DNA of 64,000 nt from an uncultured Clostridia bacterium (GCA_947168855.1 CAMVNO010000001.1:137077-201076), one strand, 5' to 3'; shown: positions 3,258-39,304, numbered from the stretch's first letter. The notes: a model not told the origin generated them from the sequence alone. Made by a program: numbers and translations.

Positions 3258-4088
3258 ATGAGTTACGCAGATCAGGTCTATATCGAGAATTGCAAACGCA
3301 TCCTGAACGAAGGCGTTTGGGATACGGATATGAATGTACGTCCCCGTTGGGACGACGGTACTCCGGCGCATACGGTCAAACTGTTCGGCATTGTAAATCG
3401 GTACGACCTCAGCAAAGAGTTTCCCATCATGACGCTGCGCAGGACCTACTGGAAATCCAGCATCGATGAACTCCTTTGGATATGGCAGAAGAAATCAAAC
3501 AACGTTCATGATCTCGGAAGCCATATCTGGGACAGCTGGGCGGACGAAACCGGCTCGATCGGAAAAGCCTACGGATATCAGCTTGCGCAGAAACATCGAT
3601 ATTCCGACGGCGAGTTTGATCAGGTCGACCGTGTTCTTTACCTTTTGAAACACGATCCCGCAAGCCGCAGGATCCTGACCAATCTGTATAATTTCGAAGA
3701 TCTTCACGAGATGCATCTGTATCCATGCGCATACAGTATGACCTTTAATGTGTCCGGGCACAAGCTCAATGCAATTCTGAATCAGAGGTCTCAGGACATG
3801 CTGACCGCAAATAACTGGAATGTTGTACAGTACGCGGCGCTTGTCCATATGTTTGCGCAGGTTTCCGGATTGGAGCCCGGCGAGCTTGTGCATGTCATAG
3901 CCGATTGCCACATCTATGACCGGCATGTGGAGATGGTGAAAAGAATGATCGAGCTCGATCCGTACGATGCGCCGACCTTCTCGATCGATCCGGATGTAAA
4001 GGACTTCTACGCGTTTACTGCACAGAGTTTCAAAATGCTAAACTATCAATACCATCCGTTTAACGAAAAAATCCCTGTTGCTATTTGA
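3258..4088 (+). CDS. thyA: thymidylate synthase
   Basis: 276 aa. Contains ELLWIW, GSIGKAYGYQ, the active-site region LYPCAYSMTFN, QRSQDM and IADCHIYDRH, all typical of ThyA. Confidence 0.95.
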   Translation: MSYADQVYIENCKRILNEGVWDTDMNVRPRWDDGTPAHTVKLFGIVNRYDLSKEFPIMTLRRTYWKSSIDELLWIWQKKSNNVHDLGSHIWDSWADETGSIGKAYGYQLAQKHRYSDGEFDQVDRVLYLLKHDPASRRILTNLYNFEDLHEMHLYPCAYSMTFNVSGHKLNAILNQRSQDMLTANNWNVVQYAALVHMFAQVSGLEPGELVHVIADCHIYDRHVEMVKRMIELDPYDAPTFSIDPDVKDFYAFTAQSFKMLNYQYHPFNEKIPVAI

Positions 4089-4597
4089 TTATTATGCTTG
4101 CTGTTGTGAATGTAAATCCCCGATGGGGGATTGGAAATGAAAACCGTCTCTTGGCGCATATCCGAGCCGATATGCGTCGTTTCCGCAGTCTCACGACCGG
4201 GAACGCCATTATCATCGGAAGAAAAACGCTGGATACGTTTCCGAACGGAAAACCTCTGCCGAACAGAGAAAATATCATTCTGACCCATGATCCGGATTTT
4301 TCTGCCGAGAGCGCAGTCATCTGTCATACGCTTGAGGAACTGTTTTCCGTTGTGAAAGACCGCGATCCCGATTCCGTTTTCGTCTGCGGCGGAGAGCAGA
4401 TATATCGGCAGCTTCTCCCGTACTGCAGCAAAGCGTTTGTCACGTTGACCTATTCCGACGCAAAGGCGGACCGGTATTTTCCGAATCTGAATCAGCTGCC
4501 GAACTGGATCCTGACTGAAGTCGGCGAAAAGCAGTATGAAAACAATATCGGATTCCGGTTCTTAATGTACACAAATACGGACGTTCAACCGTTTTAA
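4085..4597 (+). CDS. folA: dihydrofolate reductase
   Basis: MIIMLAVV..RWGIGNENRLLAHIRADMRRFRSLTTGNAIIIGRKTLDTFP..PLPNRENIILT matches DHFR. TTG start overlaps the thyA stop (TTGA); an alternative ATG lies at 4094. Confidence 0.9.
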   Translation: MIIMLAVVNVNPRWGIGNENRLLAHIRADMRRFRSLTTGNAIIIGRKTLDTFPNGKPLPNRENIILTHDPDFSAESAVICHTLEELFSVVKDRDPDSVFVCGGEQIYRQLLPYCSKAFVTLTYSDAKADRYFPNLNQLPNWILTEVGEKQYENNIGFRFLMYTNTDVQPF

Positions 4598-6155
4598 AGC
4601 ATGAAAAAAGCAGCCGGTACGGCTGCTTCTGGTGGAGGTCCTTCTCCAAAGGTCGAACACCGTCACCGGCGTCGCCGGGCGGATCCTCCGGAGGATCCGG
4701 CAGCGCATACCCATCGGCACGAGCGCCGGAATTGAGATCGACGGTAAAGGTATCGTCGTAGACGTAGACGCGGGAAACGTACACGTCGAAAAGCGTCTGA
4801 CGAAACTCCGGATCCCGGACGTCGCCGGTGCGGATCACGCGGAGAAACGCGACGAACTCATCACGGTCAAACGCCCGCGACCGCGCCTGTTCCATCACAA
4901 GCCGCGCTTCGAGCCGCCTTTCCTGTTCTTCGAGCTCGACAAGGCGATTTGCCATTGACGAGCTTGCGACCATTTCAAGCGTCTTCAGGACGTTTGCTTT
5001 GCGCTTTCGGCAGTCCACGAGCTGCGCCTTGATCATTTCTTCTTCGCTCGTCTTTTCAAGCTCCGCCCGCATCATCGCATCCGCTTCATCGGCGATCCGG
5101 TCAATCTCCTCGTCTGTCATGGACGCCTGTACGAGCTCGGCGACGGCAAGCTCCAATTTGTCGCGACTGACGGCGCTGCGCGTGCAGCTCGTCGTCCTGC
5201 GCTTCCGCCCGGTGCACTCATAATAATAATATCGGACGCCGTGCCGCGATGTGCCGTACGCGCCGCTCATAAGCGATCCGCACCGTCCGCAAAAGACCTT
5301 CCCTGTCAGAGCATAGATCTCATCGGACGTCGCCGGCGCGTGCGCCATGTATTCGCGGCGGCGTTTCACCTTATCAAAAAGCTCGTCGTCGATGATGCGC
5401 GGCATGCCGCCCTCGATCCGGACGTCGTCATAGATGTATACGCCTTTATATCGCTCGTTATCCAGGAGCTTCTTGAAGCTCGTGAACCGCCACGGCTTCC
5501 CGGTCTTTGTCGTGATCCCGCGCTCGTTCAGATCTGCGGCGATCTCGTGCACACGGACGCCTGCAGCATACCGTTCGAAGATCTGCCGGACGACGGCAGC
5601 CGCGGGCGGATCGATCTCGATATGACCTTCGGCGTCGACGCGCTTGTACCCGTACGGAAGCGGACCGTTTGAAAGCGCGTGATCCGCATTGTACCGGTGC
5701 CCGCGAATGACGTCTTGTCGGAGATTCGCAACGTAAAATTCCGCCTGGCTTTCAAGCATTCCCTCGATCAGAATGCCGATCGGCCCGTCCGGCATATCCT
5801 CCCGCGCGTATTCAACCGTGATTCCCATCTGACGCAGGCGCGATTTGTAGATTGCGCTGTCGAGCCGGTCACGTGCAAAGCGGTCGACCTTGTATGTGAC
5901 GACATGACCGAACGCGCCCTTTTCGGCGTCGGCGATCATCTTTTGAAACTGCGGGCGGTCCTCGACGGTGCCGCTGATCGCCTCGTCCGGGTAGACGTCA
6001 AGCACCGTCCACCCGCGACGGGCGGCATACGCCCGGCACTCCGCGACCTGCTGCTCGATGCTCTCTTCACGTTGGCTATGCGAAGAGAACCTGGCATAGA
6101 TCACGCAGGCGCTTGCAGCCGTTTTTGATAGTTTAGTTCCCTTTCGCTTTTTCAT
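4440..6155 (-). CDS. large serine recombinase (prophage integrase)
   Basis: CVIYARFSSHSQREESIEQQ is a resolvase catalytic domain with the Ser nucleophile. It also has a recombinase domain, a zinc ribbon (CGRCGS...YYYECTGRK..SC) and a coiled coil. Start taken at MKKRKG (6155). No stop occurs before the att core, so the last ~62 codons (4627-4440) are host DNA antisense to folA. Confidence 0.9.
   Translation of the reverse strand: MKKRKGTKLSKTAASACVIYARFSSHSQREESIEQQVAECRAYAARRGWTVLDVYPDEAISGTVEDRPQFQKMIADAEKGAFGHVVTYKVDRFARDRLDSAIYKSRLRQMGITVEYAREDMPDGPIGILIEGMLESQAEFYVANLRQDVIRGHRYNADHALSNGPLPYGYKRVDAEGHIEIDPPAAAVVRQIFERYAAGVRVHEIAADLNERGITTKTGKPWRFTSFKKLLDNERYKGVYIYDDVRIEGGMPRIIDDELFDKVKRRREYMAHAPATSDEIYALTGKVFCGRCGSLMSGAYGTSRHGVRYYYYECTGRKRRTTSCTRSAVSRDKLELAVAELVQASMTDEEIDRIADEADAMMRAELEKTSEEEMIKAQLVDCRKRKANVLKTLEMVASSSMANRLVELEEQERRLEARLVMEQARSRAFDRDEFVAFLRVIRTGDVRDPEFRQTLFDVYVSRVYVYDDTFTVDLNSGARADGYALPDPPEDPPGDAGDGVRPLEKDLHQKQPYRLLFSCFKTVERPYLCTLRTGIRYCFHTAFRRLQSGSSSAADSDSENTGPPLRRNRST
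4604..4630. terminator. hairpin terminator (A6 - AGCAGCCG/CGGCTGCT stem); strongest on the minus strand
   Basis: An 8-bp GC-rich stem at 4609-4627 is flanked by AAAAAA, which reads as a T6 tail on the minus strand. It abuts the attL core, consistent with it being the original terminator of the tRNA-Ala gene and of folA. Confidence 0.6.
4628..4637. repeat. attL core (TCTGGTGGAG)
   Basis: Identical 10-mer at 39226-39235. Here it lies between the host terminator and the 3' end of the integrase ORF. Confidence 0.6.
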
Positions 6156-7437
6156 ATTCAGCCACCATCTTAAAGAAATCAGCTTCAGAGATATTCTGAA
6201 TGGCAGATCCTTTTGATCTCCATTCATCTGCTTTTTTCATTTTACCGCTGCCGGCTTCATCCGTGTTCGGCGGAAATCCGGCGTCACCGACGACCAGAAA
6301 CGAGGTGCCTTTTGTAACCTTATCTGCAGCAACTCCTCCATGATTCACCACATACTGACATGCTTCTGCTCGTGTCATTGATAACAGTTCCCCGGTAAAA
6401 ACAATGCGTTTTCCGTATAACGGATTTTGTGGATCAACTGAATCGACGGTTGGCTTCAAGGTGTCATAATCGACTTGAATTTTGGAAAAATCGTAGTTTT
6501 CTATAGCAACTCGCTTTTTCTCTTCCGGAGATATCATAGAACGCAGCGCCGATGCACAAAGGATCGTCGTCTCTGCATCTGCGAGTGCACGGTGAGCAAC
6601 CGGGACCGGGATATCAAGACGCCGAGCTACATCTTCCAAAGAGTAGTGCTTCAGATCTGGCAGACATTTCTTTGCAAGCGGAAGTACATCAAAATAATCG
6701 CTGCAAAAGAAATTGCCGCATCTCTCGGCAGCTGCTTTGAGAAAACGAATATCAAATCCGACATTGTATCCGACGACATCGCGGTAATTGATGTATTCCA
6801 AAAATCGTGGAATGATCTCATTTTCGGTCGGAGCATCTGACAGCATCTCGTTCGAGATACCTGTGATCTGTTCCACATTCGGAGGGATCGGAACTTCGGA
6901 ACGCACCAATGACGAAAACCGATCAACGATTCTTCCGCTCTCGACTCTGACCGCGGCAATCTCTGTAATCCTGTCATGTTGAGGATTAAGACCGGTCGTT
7001 TCAACATCGATCCCAAAATAGTCAGAGGGGAACCGTGTGAGGCGCTTTCCGTCAAGTCCTTCAAAGGAAACGGAAAAGGATACGGGCATACTGATACTGC
7101 TTTCGGGCGTCTCTGTTACTGCTTGCGTATCGTGATGCCCAGCTGCTACGACAGTATCTTGTTCGTTGCTTTCAGGCACACGAGCAATAGGAGCGGGCGG
7201 CGCTTCTCGTTTTACTTGCGGTTCTGCATCTGCTTTCCGGTTCTTTTTCAAAACAATCGGGAGGATCAAAACCGCTGCAGCTGGGAGGATACAGAAAAAT
7301 CCAATCACGATACCGAAGACGCCGCTTCCGGTCTCTCCGTCAGATATCAGACTGAACCCGGACGCGATCATGATGATGGAAAACAGGATTACAGGAACGG
7401 CTACAACAATCTGCCATGCTTTAATTCTCTTTTTCAT
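6133..7437 (-). CDS. membrane-anchored DEDDh 3'-5' exonuclease (DnaQ/epsilon-like) with C-terminal BRCT domain
   Basis: Two N-terminal TM helices (AWQIVVAVPVILFSIIMIASGF; VFGIVIGFFCILPAAAVLILPIVL). ExoI GIDVETTGL, ExoII GYNVGFDIRFL, ExoIII HRALADAETT. BRCT-like GKRIVFTGELLSMTRAEACQYVVNHGGVAADKVTKGTSFLVVGD. ATG at 7437 is preceded by AGGAGA. Sits between the repressor and integrase on the same strand. Confidence 0.8.
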   Translation of the reverse strand: MKKRIKAWQIVVAVPVILFSIIMIASGFSLISDGETGSGVFGIVIGFFCILPAAAVLILPIVLKKNRKADAEPQVKREAPPAPIARVPESNEQDTVVAAGHHDTQAVTETPESSISMPVSFSVSFEGLDGKRLTRFPSDYFGIDVETTGLNPQHDRITEIAAVRVESGRIVDRFSSLVRSEVPIPPNVEQITGISNEMLSDAPTENEIIPRFLEYINYRDVVGYNVGFDIRFLKAAAERCGNFFCSDYFDVLPLAKKCLPDLKHYSLEDVARRLDIPVPVAHRALADAETTILCASALRSMISPEEKKRVAIENYDFSKIQVDYDTLKPTVDSVDPQNPLYGKRIVFTGELLSMTRAEACQYVVNHGGVAADKVTKGTSFLVVGDAGFPPNTDEAGSGKMKKADEWRSKGSAIQNISEADFFKMVAEYEKAKGN

Positions 7438-7467
7438 GCTTCTATCTCCTATATTCTCGAATATCAA

Positions 7468-7815
7468 TTACAGGGCATTCTTGCCCTCTTTTTTATCTCT
7501 TTTCTGCTTTTCAAGGAAGAAATCGATATTATCAAGAATCGTCTGCTTGTTCGCATCGGTTAAGCTGCGAAAATCAAGGATCAGACGCATTTCAAGCTCT
7601 GATGGTGAAAAGATAGAATCAGAATCGGGATATCCGAGAGTGGATAAAGGAACTTTCAAATACTGGCAAATAAGAACTGCACGATCATACGGAATCCGTT
7701 TGGGTGCCTTCTTTGGGTTCAGATACCCATTAGAAAAACCGCATGCCATTTCAAGTGTGTGGATTGAGATTTTACGATCGCTGCATAGAGATCTCACGAT
7801 TTCAACATCTGACAT
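7468..7815 (-). CDS. XRE-family HTH repressor (cI-like)
   Basis: 115 aa with an N-terminal HTH (ISIHTLEMACGFSNGYLN). Divergent from a cro-like gene across the operator region. GGGGG RBS. Confidence 0.8.
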   Translation of the reverse strand: MSDVEIVRSLCSDRKISIHTLEMACGFSNGYLNPKKAPKRIPYDRAVLICQYLKVPLSTLGYPDSDSIFSPSELEMRLILDFRSLTDANKQTILDNIDFFLEKQKRDKKEGKNAL

Positions 7816-7836
7816 AATGAACCCCCAAAAAATAAT

Positions 7837-7998
7837 TTAGAAAAATTCCTAAATTGACTATTGACAAATTAGGGGATTCCCTATATACTGAAAAAGCAGT
7901 TAGGGAAATTCCTAATCCGATAGTCTATAGTATTGCTCGCAACAATTATTTTAGACTAAAATCTAAAATTCGTCAATAGATTCAAGGAATTTTCCTAA
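7837..7998. promoter_or_regulatory. genetic-switch region with four palindromic operator-like repeats
   Basis: TTAGAAAAATTCCTAA (7837-7852), TTAGGGGATTCCCTAT (7869-7884), TTAGGGAAATTCCTAA (7900-7915) and TCAAGGAATTTTCCTAA (7982-7998). All share AGGRA..TTCCTA half-sites. They lie between the divergent repressor and cro-like genes. Confidence 0.6.
7861..7889 (+). promoter_or_regulatory. sigma-70-type early promoter (TTGACA - 17 nt - TATACT)
   Basis: -35 TTGACA at 7861-7866 and -10 TATACT at 7884-7889 with a 17-nt spacer that is entirely occupied by operator repeat 2. Confidence 0.55.
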
Positions 7999-8009
7999 CT
8001 GATTCGGAG

Positions 8010-8228
8010 GTGATATATTTGGTAAATTTGCAGATCTATGAAAACGTAGCAAAACGATGCAGGGAAAAGAAGATCACTATAGCAGAACTCGAAAGGCAGG
8101 CAGGGCTTGGAAACGCAACAATCGCCGGATGGAAAACGGGATATCCGAGGATTGACAAAATTGTTGCAGTCGCGCAAGTCCTCGATTGCACTGTCGGAGA
8201 TCTGATCAGTGAGGAAATGACCGCATGA
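8010..8228 (+). CDS. XRE-family HTH protein (cro-like)
   Basis: ITIAELERQAGLGNATIAGW is an HTH. GGAGG at 8006-8010 suggests the true start is more likely TTG at 8019 than GTG at 8010. Confidence 0.75.
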   Translation: MIYLVNLQIYENVAKRCREKKITIAELERQAGLGNATIAGWKTGYPRIDKIVAVAQVLDCTVGDLISEEMTA

Positions 8229-11424: not shown

Positions 11425-11631
11425 ATGATCAAGATAGGCGACACGGTCTATACGACAGACGGCGTCCGGATCTATGAAAGCCGGGTAAGACAGATCATCT
11501 ACACGACTGACAATGCAAGTCTCGCTTTTGACAAAAGAGCGATCGGAGATTCAGTTTTCCTTTCCAGGGACGAAGCGGAAAGGAAAATGAAAAGAATGAA
11601 CGGAGGGCAAAACGATGCTGACACTGTTTGA
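11425..11631 (+). CDS. hypothetical phage protein
   Basis: MIKIGDTVYTTDGVRIYESRVRQIIY... ATG at 11425 directly follows the previous stop. It is the downstream part of track ORF 11221. Confidence 0.5.
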   Translation: MIKIGDTVYTTDGVRIYESRVRQIIYTTDNASLAFDKRAIGDSVFLSRDEAERKMKRMNGGQNDADTV

Positions 11632-12115
11632 AGCAGCTGCGAACATGGCGGAGCGGAAACGAGAACGCGAACGCAGGGAAGCGCTCGACAAATATACGAA
11701 GAACATTCTCGAAAAGATCATGAACGAACGCCGCGCCAAGCAAGAGGCAGTCCAAGAAAAGGCGGAGTGGAAACGAGAACGCGAACGCAAGGAAGCGCTC
11801 GGCGAACATACGCTCGAAAAGATCATGGAAAAGATCATGAACGAACGCCGCGCCAAGCAAGAGGCAGCCCAAGAAAAGATGGAAGCGTGGGAAAAGGCGG
11901 AAGCGTGGGATCGCGAGATCACATACGCGCTTGATAAAACCGGAGATCTCTGTACACTCCTCGGCGCGATGGTTGAGGCGGTGCGCTTCGAGAACGGGAT
12001 CATCTGGATCAGACGTCCGGGCGAAGCGATCCAGCTGCAGGTCGGCGAGATCAGAGACGCCGCGGATCTGCGGGCGGCTTGCAAGAAAATGCTCGGATCC
12101 GTCTGCAAGTGCTGA
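11615..12115 (+). CDS. hypothetical coiled-coil protein with internal tandem duplication
   Basis: 166 aa. The block ERKRERERREALDKYT..KIMNERRAKQEAVQEK is repeated as KRERERKEALGEHT..KIMNERRAKQEAAQEK. Confidence 0.55.
   Translation: MLTLFEAAANMAERKRERERREALDKYTKNILEKIMNERRAKQEAVQEKAEWKRERERKEALGEHTLEKIMEKIMNERRAKQEAAQEKMEAWEKAEAWDREITYALDKTGDLCTLLGAMVEAVRFENGIIWIRRPGEAIQLQVGEIRDAADLRAACKKMLGSVCKC
11655..11885 (+). repeat. tandem duplication of about 114 nt inside the CDS
   Basis: GGAAACGAGAACGCGAACGCA..GAAAAGATCATGAACGAACGCCGCGCCAAGCAAGAGGCAG occurs twice, starting at 11655 and 11769. Confidence 0.8.
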
Positions 12116-16378: not shown

Positions 16379-16455
16379 GGATCTGTGGCGCAGTTGGTTA
16401 GCGCGGCCGCCTCATAAGCAGTTGGTCCTCGGTTCGAATCCGAGCAGGTCCACCA
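16379..16455 (+). tRNA. prophage-encoded tRNA, anticodon CAU (Met or lysidine-Ile type)
   Basis: Manual cloverleaf. Acceptor GGATCTG/CAGGTCC, D arm GCGC-AGTTGGTTA-GCGC, anticodon loop CTCATAA, T arm CTCGG-TTCGAAT-CCGAG, encoded CCA. The anticodon stem GCCGC/GCAGT has one C-A mismatch and one G-U pair. Confidence 0.7.
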
Positions 16456-39225: not shown

Positions 39226-39235
39226 TCTGGTGGAG
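39226..39235. repeat. attR core (TCTGGTGGAG)
   Basis: Identical to 4628-4637. Overlaps the 3' terminal CTCCACCA of tRNA-Ala on the minus strand. Confidence 0.6.
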
Positions 39236-39304
39236 CTTAGGGGATTCGAACCCCTGATCTCTACACTGCCAGTGTAGCGCGATAGCCAACTTCGCTAAAG
39301 CCCC
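39228..39304 (-). tRNA. tRNA-Ala (anticodon GGC)
   Basis: Manual cloverleaf of the reverse complement. Acceptor GGGGCTT/AAGCTCC with the G3-U70 Ala identity pair, anticodon loop CTGGCAG, T arm AGGGG-TTCGAAT-CCCCT, encoded CCA. Confidence 0.85.

What the first reader, a model, noticed from the sequence alone, without database searches (positions are those of the whole stretch)
6133..7437. Membrane-tethered DEDDh exonuclease-BRCT protein co-transcribed with the prophage repressor: candidate superinfection-exclusion or defence gene
Seen: a 434-aa ORF sits between the cI-like repressor and the integrase on the same strand. The repressor stop at 7468 lies about 30 nt upstream of the ORF's ATG (7437), and the ORF's 3' end overlaps the int start. 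From N to C it has a basic N-terminus, two TM helices separated by a short loop, a basic stretch (KKNRK), an ~80-aa linker, a complete ExoI/II/III DnaQ-like domain (DVETTG, GYNVGFD, HRALADAETT) and a BRCT-like domain. The positive-inside pattern places the nuclease on the cytoplasmic face of the membrane. Established: genes expressed with the repressor in lysogens are a classic location for exclusion and defence functions (lambda rexAB, sie genes, ltp). BRCT domains in LigA-type proteins bind DNA ends or nicks. Inference: a 3'-5' exonuclease anchored at the inner membrane face could attack incoming linear phage DNA as it is injected. I do not recognise this architecture as a named defence system.
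Basis: partly seen in the sequence, partly recalled or inferred. Interest (0 to 1): 0.7.

Follow-up and report, generated by a model that had tools for sequence, protein, structure and literature searches.

The report
Membrane-anchored exonuclease in prophage immunity operon
A dormant virus in this bacterial genome carries, right behind its repressor gene, a DNA-chewing enzyme predicted to be tethered to the inside of the cell membrane; it is probably a guard against incoming foreign DNA, but nobody has tested this.

Summary
ORF 6133-7437 (-) encodes 434 aa: a 2-TM hairpin, a disordered linker, an intact DEDDh 3'-5' exonuclease and a LigA/RFC1-type BRCT. It starts 30 nt after a small HTH repressor and overlaps a large serine integrase. 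It lies 1.5 kb inside a 34.6-kb siphovirus-like prophage (attL 4628, attR 39226).

The Exo-BRCT core is already catalogued as PHROG_192 and resembles the untested PADLOC candidate PDC-S48. In 57 of 80 viral contigs this core has an integrase just downstream, and in 49 of 80 also an HTH gene just upstream. The integrase can be either the tyrosine or the serine type. About 17% of close homologues carry N-terminal TM anchors of at least 7 unrelated kinds.

The window's own anchor also occurs, in phages with 93-96% identical integrases, fused to BRCT alone or to an orphan domain. It occurs fused to a TPR-like head in a phage with a tyrosine integrase. Sister phages fill the same slot with lipoproteins, TM2-domain, Fic or SHOCT proteins.

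Best reading (about 0.45): a lysogen-expressed exclusion factor that attacks incoming DNA ends at the membrane, analogous to SNIPE but unrelated to it. No experiment exists. The only characterised Exo-BRCT protein is a mycobacterial proofreader.

The parts
6133..7437 (-). TM-DEDDh-BRCT gene (434 aa plus stop)
   Evidence: ORF with an AGGAG RBS. Pfam RNase_T and BRCT. dN/dS 0.21 against the P0002 gene.
7240..7419 (-). Two-helix membrane anchor (aa 7-66), flanked by basic residues
   Evidence: Kyte-Doolittle peaks 2.66 and 2.75. AF2 helices 7-32 and 36-70. Charge distribution fits N-in/C-in. The same anchor is found on other heads.
7063..7239 (-). Pro/Glu/Ser/Thr-rich disordered linker (aa 67-125)
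   Evidence: pLDDT below 50 for aa 74-126. dN/dS 0.43. The relative P0003 has a long charged helical spacer here instead.
6523..7062 (-). DEDDh (DnaQ-like) 3'-5' exonuclease domain (aa 126-305); catalytic residues D144, E146, D229, H282, D287
   Evidence: Pfam. PDB sequence matches to PolC exonuclease, Cas2-DEDDh, DinG exonuclease, epsilon and ExoX. Foldseek matches. Invariant columns.
6136..6432 (-). LigA/RFC1-type BRCT domain (aa 336-434)
   Evidence: Pfam BRCT. The best PDB matches are the LigA and RFC1 BRCT domains. T348, G349, R356 and K399 are at least 90% conserved. dN/dS 0.046.
7468..7815 (-). 115-aa HTH protein, the presumed immunity repressor and first gene of the leftward operon
   Evidence: Weak HTH_26 and PHROG_8 hits. 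Divergent from a Cro-type HTH gene. Equivalents occupy the same position in L004-L011 and L181. dN/dS 0.03.
7472..7487 (.). 6-bp GC hairpin at the repressor stop codon; a possible leaky terminator or RNA-stability element
   Evidence: It is conserved in L181 and L007 and replaced by a different hairpin in L182.
7948..7976 (-). Promoter-like site (TTGACG-17-TAAAAT) upstream of the repressor
   Evidence: No minus-strand promoter or canonical terminator was found between the repressor stop and the ORF start.
7838..7999 (.). Four operator-like palindromes (TTAGGnnAnTTCCTAA) in the switch region
8010..8228 (+). Cro-like HTH gene, divergent from the repressor
   Evidence: Pfam HTH_26 at 3e-11.
4440..6158 (-). 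Large serine integrase. Its start overlaps the ORF by 26 nt. Its last ~190 nt lie beyond attL in host DNA.
   Evidence: Pfam. It is 93-96% identical to the integrases of L007 and L182, and the alignment diverges after about aa 510.
4628..4637 (.). attL core TCTGGTGGAG
   Evidence: Breakpoint of homology with L007 and L182.
39226..39235 (.). attR core TCTGGTGGAG, overlapping the 3' end of tRNA-Ala
   Evidence: L182 carries the joined attP.

Best explanation
The gene is an accessory (moron-type) cargo gene of a temperate siphovirus. It is transcribed leftward with the repressor and the integrase, so it should be made in the lysogen.

The 2-TM hairpin would hold the protein in the cytoplasmic membrane. 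A flexible spacer of about 60 residues would let the exonuclease and BRCT domains reach into the cytoplasm.

Proposed action, all inferred:
- The LigA/RFC1-type BRCT recognises a duplex DNA end or nick bearing a 5'-phosphate.
- The DEDDh domain then removes the 3' strand.
- Linear DNA entering through the membrane loses its cohesive or recombinogenic 3' ends. That DNA would be a superinfecting phage genome, or possibly other incoming DNA.
- The damaged DNA cannot circularise and is left to host nucleases.

The circular chromosome and the resident prophage have no free ends and sit away from the entry site, so they would be spared.

Shown here: the gene, its domains, intact catalytic residues, purifying selection, the conserved repressor-X-integrase position, recurrent membrane anchoring, and head swapping on one anchor. 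Inferred: expression in the lysogen, topology, DNA-end specificity and the protective phenotype.
For: **Position**
- 57 of 80 viral Exo-BRCT loci have an integrase within 2.5 kb downstream on the same strand. 56 of 80 have an HTH gene within 0.9 kb upstream, and 49 of 80 have both.
- After clustering at 60% identity, 26 of 44 clusters have the integrase.
- Single clusters are paired with either tyrosine or serine integrases.
- By rough reckoning, a random phage gene would have an integrase this close downstream a few percent of the time.
- The same layout occurs in S. pneumoniae IPP44, S. aureus phi2958PVL, C. jejuni CJIE4-2 and the satellite Javan542.

**Operon structure**
- The gap after the repressor is 30 nt and the overlap with int is 26 nt.
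- The only minus-strand promoter-like site found lies upstream of the repressor.

**Membrane anchoring is selected**
- 20 of 119 close homologues carry N-terminal TM segments of at least 7 unrelated types.
- The nearest core relatives of these TM forms often lack a TM segment.
- dN/dS for the TM region is 0.20.

**Cassette behaviour**
- The window's anchor and linker are found in only a handful of proteins among 1.84 billion representatives.
- Those proteins carry Exo-BRCT, BRCT alone, an orphan domain or a TPR-like head. All sit in the repressor-integrase slot.
- The BRCT-only and orphan-domain forms are in phages whose integrases are 93-96% identical to the window's. The TPR-like form is in a phage with a tyrosine integrase.

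**Other occupants of the slot in related serine-integrase phages**
- A lipobox lipoprotein, a DUF4236+TM2 membrane protein, a Fic protein, a SHOCT protein and 2-TM BRCT proteins.

**Links to defence**
- Matches to PADLOC PDC-S48 at both ends of the model.
- Neighbours include HsdR+GmrSD, Gabija, HicAB and a KAP NTPase that hits PDC-S49.

**Biochemical plausibility**
- The closest structures are all DNA 3'-5' exonucleases.
- The BRCT best matches LigA and the RFC1 BRCT. From my own knowledge, the RFC1 BRCT binds 5'-phosphorylated duplex ends.

**Other**
- SNIPE is a precedent: a membrane-anchored nuclease that cuts phage DNA at injection and has hypervariable N-termini.
- No DNA polymerase was found among the ten large prophage ORFs scanned, so there is no obvious partner for a proofreader.
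Against: - There are no experimental data for any phage member. No paper in the library mentions PDC-S48 or this architecture.
- Most family members lack a TM segment, so the membrane is not essential to the family's function.
- Exonuclease-less TM-BRCT variants are common: P0004 is on 21 contigs, and L248 and L252-256 are further examples. Either nuclease activity is dispensable or those copies do something else.
- Some homologues lie beside mnmG, RNase R or pcrA, with no mobile-element genes detected.
- The one characterised Exo-BRCT protein is a replisome proofreader whose BRCT mediates protein contacts.
- DnaQ-type exonucleases alone are usually poor at destroying long duplex DNA.
- A conserved hairpin at the repressor stop codon could attenuate read-through.
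- The repressor's identity rests on weak HTH hits.
Confidence: 0.45

Rival explanations
1. DNA-metabolism helper for the phage or its host. It would be a DnaQ-type proofreading or repair exonuclease recruited by its BRCT to a polymerase, clamp or ligation intermediate. It would improve replication fidelity or nick processing during lysogeny or after induction.
For: - Databases name the family as a DNA polymerase exonuclease subunit or a Pol III epsilon (PHROG_192, NCBIfam PRK06195).
- Mycobacterial DnaQ has the same Exo-BRCT layout. It is a genuine second proofreader and requires its BRCT.
- Some homologues sit in housekeeping-like contexts beside pcrA, RNase R or mnmG.
- P0045 lies next to a phage replication module that includes DNA pol A.
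Against: - A membrane tether is hard to reconcile with replisome work, and tethers arose repeatedly.
- The gene sits in the lysogeny operon, on the opposite strand from the early lytic genes, in most phages.
- No polymerase was found among the ten large ORFs scanned in this prophage, and an 11.9-kb satellite carries the gene.
- All NCBIfam equivalog scores are far below their cut-offs, for example 99 against 373 for PRK06195.
- No clamp-binding motif was found.
- The anchor is shared with heads that are not nucleases.
Confidence: 0.15
2. Exclusion of DNA other than phage DNA. The nuclease would degrade transforming single-stranded DNA, or conjative DNA, at the membrane. This would protect the prophage from being deleted by recombination, or from competing mobile elements.
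For: - From background knowledge: in Gram-positive transformation, single-stranded DNA enters 3' end first. A membrane-bound 3'-5' exonuclease would therefore be well placed.
- The annotated phages with full-length Exo-BRCT come from S. pneumoniae, S. mitis, S. sanguinis, S. suis, C. jejuni, M. catarrhalis, P. multocida and S. aureus. From background knowledge, most of these are naturally transformable.
- From background knowledge: CJIE prophages of C. jejuni are known to carry other nucleases that block transformation.
Against: - The host list may only reflect which pathogens are sequenced. Most metagenomic members come from gut Clostridia, whose competence is unknown.
- A LigA/RFC1-type BRCT suggests duplex ends or nicks rather than single-stranded DNA.
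- No direct evidence exists.
Confidence: 0.12
3. Control of lysogeny rather than defence. The protein would be a DNA-damage or DNA-end sensor that tunes prophage induction, or a factor that assists integration or excision.
For: - It is in an operon with the repressor and translationally coupled to the integrase.
- ImmA-like and other switch accessories occupy similar positions in other phages.
- The small repressor lacks a self-cleavage domain, so induction needs some other input.
Against: - The same Exo-BRCT cluster is paired with either tyrosine or serine integrases. These have unrelated mechanisms and unrelated directionality factors.
- The slot is filled by unrelated proteins, or left empty, in sister phages. 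A core switch component would not be replaced so freely.
- Phages with near-identical integrases carry different heads.
Confidence: 0.08

Closest known systems
SNIPE (membrane-bound GIY-YIG nuclease of E. coli; Saxton et al., Nature 2026, PMC13190303)
   Same: - N-terminal membrane anchor, then a cytoplasmic DNA-binding module, then a nuclease.
- The N-terminal region is hypervariable across homologues. Some have one TM segment, some two, some none.
- SNIPE was shown to cut phage DNA during injection while sparing an induced prophage. That is the mechanism proposed here.
   Different: - There is no sequence or fold relationship. SNIPE has DUF4041 and a GIY-YIG endonuclease. This protein has a DEDDh exonuclease and a BRCT.
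- SNIPE has a single TM segment with its N-terminus in the periplasm. This protein has a 2-TM hairpin.
- SNIPE is a chromosomal or defence-island gene. This gene is in a prophage immunity operon.
- SNIPE's activity is demonstrated. This one's is not.
PADLOC phage-defence candidate PDC-S48
   Same: - A single-gene candidate whose HMM starts with a DEDDh domain and ends with a BRCT.
- The query matches model positions 6-170 (E 5e-38).
- The BRCT of the exonuclease-less relative P0004 matches positions 334-407.
   Different: - The middle of the model (about positions 180-334) is not matched, and the model has no TM anchor.
- PDC-S48 is a prediction. No phenotype or description was found in the searchable literature.
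PHROG_192 / NCBIfam PRK06195: phage and bacterial 'DNA polymerase exonuclease subunit' proteins of about 300 aa
   Same: The same Exo-BRCT core. The PHROG_192 match has E 1.7e-56 over aa 113-429. This core is what sits after the repressor in many temperate phages.
   Different: - No membrane anchor or linker.
- The name is an annotation by homology, not a tested function.
- The NCBIfam score of 99 is far below the cut-off of 373.
Mycobacterial DnaQ (Exo-BRCT 'additional proofreader', PNAS 2024, PMC11348249)
   Same: A DEDDh exonuclease followed by a C-terminal BRCT that is essential for function. The query gives a partial match to the related NCBIfam model PRK06063.
   Different: - It is a soluble, replisome-associated chromosomal housekeeping gene with a clamp-binding motif.
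- The query has a TM anchor, no clamp motif and a prophage immunity-operon location.
Classical prophage superinfection-exclusion genes (lactococcal Sie2009-type, S. thermophilus Ltp, lambda rexAB/sieB); from background knowledge
   Same: - They lie between or beside the repressor and integrase genes.
- They are expressed in the lysogen.
- They are membrane-associated.
- They block the DNA entry stage or an early stage of infection.
   Different: Those proteins are small membrane proteins or lipoproteins without enzymatic domains. This one carries a complete nuclease and a DNA-end-binding-type domain.
Cas2-DEDDh / CRISPR-associated DnaQ, and the S. aureus DinG exonuclease domain
   Same: These are the closest solved exonuclease domains by sequence and by fold. 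All are DNA 3'-5' exonucleases.
   Different: Different partners and contexts (prespacer trimming; a helicase-like scaffold). They have no BRCT and no membrane anchor.

Membership tests
DEDDh (DnaQ/RNase T-like) exonuclease superfamily | Profile match above the curated threshold | tested here: met
   Pfam PF00929 scores 127.7 bits against a cut-off of 24. TIGR00573 (dnaq subfamily domain) scores 87.8 against 71.5.
DEDDh (DnaQ/RNase T-like) exonuclease superfamily | ExoI D-x-E, ExoII D and ExoIII H-x4-D catalytic residues | tested here: met
   D144, E146, D229, H282 and D287 are present and invariant in 71 sequences.
DEDDh (DnaQ/RNase T-like) exonuclease superfamily | RNase H-like fold superimposable on known members | tested here: met
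   The AF2 domain has pLDDT above 90. Foldseek TM-score (by target) is 0.89 to 8h2f and 0.85 to epsilon.
DEDDh (DnaQ/RNase T-like) exonuclease superfamily | 3'-5' exonuclease activity and substrate (DNA or RNA, single- or double-stranded) | not testable with these tools
   Requires purified protein.
BRCT domain, LigA/RFC1 (DNA-binding) class | Profile match above threshold, with the closest solved relatives being LigA and RFC1 BRCT domains | tested here: met
   PF00533 scores 38.5 against 21.3. PDB matches: LigA 9vse at 5.6e-5, RFC1 2k6g/2k7f at 4e-4, E. coli LigA 2owo.
BRCT domain, LigA/RFC1 (DNA-binding) class | Conserved phosphate-pocket residues (T-G, R, K) | tested here: inconclusive
   T348-G349 and R356 align with the RFC1 TG and R positions and are at least 90% conserved. 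The lysine equivalent is ambiguous (K376 or K399). The roles of these residues in RFC1 are recalled from the literature and were not checked here.
PADLOC PDC-S48 (candidate defence gene) | Match along the whole HMM | tested here: inconclusive
   Only the exonuclease part (6-170 of 411) plus a second short stretch are matched. In P0004 the BRCT end (334-407) is matched. The middle of the model is absent.
PADLOC PDC-S48 (candidate defence gene) | Anti-phage phenotype | not testable with these tools
   No publication was found for PDC-S48.
SNIPE | DUF4041 domain and GIY-YIG nuclease | tested here: not met
   Neither appears in the Pfam or PADLOC hits. SNIPE is a functional analogue only.
SNIPE | N-terminal membrane anchor with the nuclease in the cytoplasm | tested here: met
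   By prediction only: hydropathy, AF2 and positive-inside charges.
Pol III epsilon / proofreading subunit | Equivalog-level match | tested here: not met
   All NCBIfam equivalog scores are far below their cut-offs. Examples: PRK06195 99 against 373, dnaQ_proteo 71.9 against 222.7, PolC 120 against 873.
Pol III epsilon / proofreading subunit | Clamp-binding motif or a partner polymerase encoded nearby | tested here: not met
   No QL[SD]LF-like motif. No DNA polymerase among the ten large prophage ORFs scanned.
Prophage superinfection-exclusion / moron genes | Located in the lysogeny module between repressor and integrase, on their strand | tested here: met
Prophage superinfection-exclusion / moron genes | The slot is variable among related phages | tested here: met
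   Different heads on one anchor with 93-96% identical integrases. Lipoprotein, TM2, Fic and SHOCT proteins occupy the slot in sister phages.
Prophage superinfection-exclusion / moron genes | Expressed in the lysogen and protective | not testable with these tools
   Co-transcription is inferred from the 30-nt gap and the lack of an internal promoter. A hairpin at the repressor stop is a caveat.

The most novel reading that the evidence does not exclude
Temperate phages of Gram-positive bacteria carry a second, evolutionarily independent class of injection-site nucleases.
- A LigA-type BRCT senses the free, 5'-phosphorylated end of incoming DNA.
- A DEDDh exonuclease destroys its 3' strand.
- Interchangeable membrane anchors concentrate the enzyme where DNA enters.

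The repressor-integrase slot would work as a cassette site. One anchor can be refitted with different cytoplasmic heads (Exo-BRCT, BRCT only, TPR-like, orphan domains) as phages and their competitors co-evolve. The soluble Exo-BRCT genes found in many streptococcal, staphylococcal and Campylobacter prophages would be the same exclusion system without the tether.
Probability: 0.3. Interest if true: 0.8.

Novelty: new variant of a known kind. Interest (0 to 1): 0.62.

Why it matters
- **A second membrane-tethered nuclease family.** If the protein protects lysogens, it would be a second such family, unrelated to SNIPE and carried by phages themselves. It would use DNA ends and cell geometry, not sequence or modification, to tell incoming DNA from resident DNA.
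- **A function for a very common prophage gene.** The Exo-BRCT gene behind the repressor is currently labelled 'DNA polymerase III epsilon', 'exonuclease', 'DNA ligase' or 'DinG helicase' in S. aureus, S. pneumoniae, C. jejuni and many gut Clostridia phages.
- **A source of new exclusion effectors.** It would point to a modular anchor-plus-head cassette system that could be mined.
- **The proposal is directly testable.** Plaque assays, catalytic and TM mutants, and DNA-entry assays already exist for SNIPE.

Tried and rejected
- **Literature searches.** No paper was found for PDC-S48; for BRCT + DEDDh + anti-phage; for DnaQ-like + BRCT + phage + defense; or for BRCT + exonuclease + prophage + superinfection. 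One hit on integron cassettes was not followed up. The PADLOC 'embedded defences' preprint and the S. thermophilus defence paper do not mention this family. The diDNase paper concerns a different DEDD subfamily.
- **HIRAN idea.** I guessed that the unknown domain in the 2-TM BRCT proteins L252-256 is a HIRAN 3'-end-binding domain. Pfam at E up to 10 and the PDB sequence search found nothing, so the idea was dropped.
- **Orphan head of P0121.** It has no Pfam hit, no PDB hit and no homologues beyond its own cluster. The single-sequence AF2 model was too poor for a fold search.
- **Close relatives of this phage.** The integrase search in IMG/VR found only integrases of 37% identity or less. The metagenome scan returned one close contig and otherwise ~40%-identical integrases. 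I used those only to survey the slot.
- **Structural matches.** The BFVD fold search gave only generic DnaQ-like hits, some misnamed 'DNA polymerase III subunit alpha'. No solved structure has an exonuclease and a BRCT in one chain.
- **Recombination-directionality-factor idea.** Rejected, because the same Exo-BRCT clusters pair with both tyrosine and serine integrases.
- **Repressor identity.** The PDB sequence search found nothing for the 115-aa repressor.
- **Technical failures.** The first wide alignment (A2) was too divergent for the search for related loci. My first greedy ORF caller hid the gene in two loci, so the survey was redone on all ORFs.

Full report
**1.

ORF 6133..7437 on the minus strand encodes 434 aa. 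Its ATG is at 7437 and an AGGAG sits eight bases upstream. The preceding ORF, 7468..7815, ends 30 nt before that ATG. The following ORF is a large serine recombinase with Resolvase, Recombinase and Zn_ribbon_recom domains. It starts at 6158, inside the last 26 nt of the gene.

Pfam places an RNase_T/DEDDh exonuclease at aa 142-292 (E 8e-37) and a BRCT at aa 336-408 (E 1.4e-9). The catalytic residues D144, E146, D229, H282 and D287 are present. They are invariant across 71 homologues.

Hydropathy gives two strong hydrophobic segments at about aa 8-31 and 40-63. AlphaFold2 with a 71-sequence alignment gives a helical hairpin (7-32, 36-70), a disordered stretch (74-126) and two confident globular domains.

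Four basic residues precede TM1 and four follow TM2. The eight-residue loop between them is acidic. This is the pattern expected if both ends face the cytoplasm. No dedicated topology predictor was available.

**2. It is a working gene**

I compared it with the DNA of an 89%-identical homologue (L181).
- dN/dS is 0.21 overall.
- By region it is 0.20 for the TM segments, 0.43 for the linker, 0.24 for the exonuclease and 0.05 for BRCT.
- This rests on one pairwise comparison with small counts.

The BRCT is the most constrained part.

**3. Surroundings**

The element is a siphovirus-like prophage. It has a large terminase, portal, major head protein and tape measure, plus a ParB-like protein, a methyltransferase and a replication initiator. 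None of the ten large ORFs scanned is a DNA polymerase.

The prophage ends can be placed.
- The integrase genes of two related phages are 93-96% identical to the window's, up to about codon 510. After that they diverge.
- The breakpoint lies at window 4628-4637 (TCTGGTGGAG).
- The same 10-mer recurs at 39226-39235, on the 3' end of tRNA-Ala.
- Locus L182 carries the two phage arms joined, as in attP.

The prophage therefore spans about 34.6 kb, and the gene lies 1.5 kb inside attL.

The switch region looks ordinary.
- Between the 115-aa HTH protein and a divergent Cro-type HTH gene (8010-8228) there are facing promoter-like sites and four operator-like palindromes.
- The repressor assignment rests on this layout and on weak HTH hits.
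- No minus-strand promoter or canonical terminator separates the repressor from the gene.
- A conserved 6-bp GC hairpin at the repressor stop could dampen read-through.

**4. The core is a known but uncharacterised phage family**

Residues 113-429 match PHROG_192, 'DNA polymerase exonuclease subunit', at E 1.7e-56. NCBIfam models for ~310-330-aa Exo-BRCT proteins match well below their cut-offs.

PADLOC's single-gene candidate PDC-S48 matches the exonuclease. Through the exonuclease-less relative P0004, it also matches the BRCT end of the model. I found no paper describing PDC-S48.

The closest solved exonuclease domains are PolC exonuclease, Cas2-DEDDh/CRISPR DnaQ, S. aureus DinG, epsilon and ExoX. 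All are DNA 3'-5' exonucleases. The BRCT is closest to the LigA and RFC1 BRCT domains. From my own knowledge, the RFC1 BRCT binds 5'-phosphorylated duplex ends.

The only experimentally studied Exo-BRCT protein I could find is mycobacterial DnaQ. It is an additional replication proofreader and needs its BRCT.

**5. Where the family lives**

In annotated phages the gene sits directly after the repressor and before the integrase.
- This holds for S. pneumoniae IPP44, S. aureus phi2958PVL and C. jejuni CJIE4-2.
- In CJIE4-2 it is followed by a KAP NTPase that hits PDC-S49.
- It also holds for the 11.9-kb streptococcal satellite Javan542.

| Measure | Result |
|---|---|
| Tyrosine or serine integrase within 2.5 kb downstream, same strand | 57 of 80 |
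| HTH gene within 0.9 kb upstream, same strand | 56 of 80 |
| Both | 49 of 80 |
| No integrase found, but contig ends within 1.5 kb downstream of the gene | 7 of 80 |
| Clusters at 60% identity that show the integrase (all 98 surveyed loci: 80 viral + 18 genomic) | 26 of 44 |

Single clusters pair with either integrase type. By rough reckoning, a random gene of a 40-kb phage would meet the integrase criterion a few percent of the time.

In 18 loci from species-representative genomes, 6 show the integrase. Others lie near Gabija (L035). Still others lie beside mnmG, RNase R or pcrA, which look like housekeeping contexts. Metagenomic members occur after HsdR+GmrSD, and between an S24 repressor and HicAB plus integrase.

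The family is therefore mainly, but not only, cargo of the lysogeny module.

**6. The membrane anchor**

Among the 119 best homologues with an ExoI motif, 20 have TM segments N-terminal to the exonuclease.
- These fall into at least 7 unrelated anchor types.
- For several types the nearest core relatives lack a TM segment, which indicates repeated acquisition.

Other homologues carry Cys-rich or zinc-ribbon N-terminal extensions.

Three of the four independent TM forms whose contexts I examined lie between an HTH gene and an integrase. The fourth is in a phage late region.

**7. One anchor, several heads**

I searched 1.84 billion representative proteins with the first 125 residues. This found only the window's own cluster and three other proteins, apart from a fragment and a repetitive false hit.
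- P0004: anchor + BRCT, with no exonuclease. It is on 21 contigs.
- P0121: anchor + an orphan ~110-aa domain.
- P0124: a 40%-identical anchor + a TPR-like head.

All three sit in the repressor-X-integrase slot. The integrases beside P0004 and P0121 are 96% and 93% identical to the window's.

In about 80 more distant serine-integrase phages the same slot holds other proteins:
- a lipobox lipoprotein;
- a DUF4236+TM2 membrane protein;
- a Fic protein;
- a SHOCT protein;
- a soluble Exo-BRCT;
- 2-TM proteins with repeat-length-variable linkers and a C-terminal BRCT.

This turnover is typical of exclusion or moron slots. It argues against a core role in the genetic switch or in recombination.

**8. 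Mechanism proposed**

The steps below are inferences from the anatomy.
- The gene is expressed with the repressor in the lysogen.
- The protein is inserted as a hairpin, with the enzyme on the cytoplasmic face.
- The BRCT recognises the free, 5'-phosphorylated end of entering linear DNA.
- The exonuclease strips the 3' strand.
- This ruins the cohesive ends, or the recombinogenic 3' tails, that the DNA needs to circularise.
- The end-less chromosome and the resident prophage are ignored.

SNIPE shows that a membrane-bound nuclease can work this way, and that such proteins have hypervariable N-terminal targeting regions. SNIPE is unrelated in sequence and domains, so this protein is an analogue and not a member.

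The TM-less majority would rely on end specificity alone. The exonuclease-less TM-BRCT variants would have to act by binding or capping ends, or else have a different role. This is the weakest point of the model.

**9. Rivals**

- **Proofreading or repair helper (0.15).** This is favoured by database names, by mycobacterial DnaQ and by the housekeeping-like homologues. It is disfavoured by the tether, the operon, the satellites, the missing polymerase, the missing clamp motif and the sub-threshold equivalog scores.
- **Blocking transformation or conjugation (0.12).** This is attractive because single-stranded DNA enters Gram-positive cells 3' end first (background knowledge). Many annotated hosts are also naturally competent. 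There is no direct support.
- **Induction or recombination control (0.08).** This is disfavoured by the slot turnover and by pairing with both integrase classes.

**10. Verdict**

- Observation: confirmed.
- Interpretation: partly supported. The context evidence for an exclusion or defence role is strong, but it is indirect.
- Novelty: new variant of a known kind. The membrane-tethered, cassette-like form is undescribed. The core is only a database candidate, and the concept has one experimental precedent.
- Interest: 0.62.

Noticed in passing
window 4628-4637 and 39226-39235; L182: The prophage limits are marked by a 10-bp direct repeat, TCTGGTGGAG. The right copy overlaps the CCA 3' end of tRNA-Ala(GGC) (39228-39304, minus strand). 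L182 carries the joined attP arms. The prophage is about 34.6 kb.
   Followed up: yes
window 4440-4637: The integrase ORF continues about 190 nt past attL into host DNA and overlaps the 3' end of the folA-like gene (4085-4597). Its C-terminal tail is therefore created by integration, and it differs between relatives integrated elsewhere.
   Followed up: partly
window 7838-7999: Four copies of an operator-like palindrome (TTAGGnnAnTTCCTAA) lie between the repressor and the Cro-like gene. Facing promoter-like sites are at 7861-7889 (+) and 7976-7948 (-).
   Followed up: partly
window 7472-7487: A GC-rich 6-bp hairpin (GGGCAAGAATGCCC, about -10 kcal/mol) sits on the repressor stop codon. It is conserved in L181 and L007 and replaced by a different hairpin in L182. 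It may be a leaky terminator or an RNA-stability element that sets the repressor-to-nuclease ratio.
   Followed up: partly
L007-L011 (P0004), L182-L184 (P0121), L185-L186 (P0124): The same 2-TM anchor and linker is fused to BRCT only, to an orphan domain with no homologues, or to a TPR-like head. In every case the gene lies between the repressor and the integrase.
   Followed up: yes
L248, L252-L256: Human-gut phages carry 2-TM proteins of 412-468 aa in the same slot. Their linkers are made of tandem repeats whose copy number varies between contigs. An unidentified domain and a C-terminal BRCT follow the linker.
   Followed up: partly
L029-L031 (Desemzia sp. RIT 804): Three identical Exo-BRCT loci are spaced exactly 73,123 bp apart on one contig. 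This is either a large tandem triplication or an assembly artefact.
   Followed up: no
L003 (C. jejuni CJIE4-2), locus 3869-7322: The Exo-BRCT gene ('dnaQ') is followed by a 206-aa unknown ORF and then a KAP P-loop NTPase that hits PADLOC PDC-S49. All are downstream of the CI repressor.
   Followed up: partly
window 16379-16455: A tRNA-Met gene lies inside the prophage, between the methyltransferase and the replication-initiator genes.
   Followed up: no
window 6001-8000: The immunity region is AT-richer than the rest of the prophage. GC is 0.41 for the repressor and 0.47 for the TM-Exo-BRCT gene, against 0.58 for the integrase and 0.53 for the prophage body. This fits horizontally exchanged cargo.
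   Followed up: partly
P0007, P0018, P0020, P0038, P0051 (homologues): A subset of Exo-BRCT proteins has a ~200-aa N-terminal extension in place of a TM anchor. It ends in a conserved Cys-rich motif (FGCCxxYxxCSxxGxCIH...LYAxxCxYRKNLE) and has no Pfam match.
   Followed up: no
window 11615-12115 (+): The 166-aa ORF contains an internal repeat rich in K/E/R (…EKIMNERRAKQEA… occurs twice). I saw this only in the translation.
   Followed up: no
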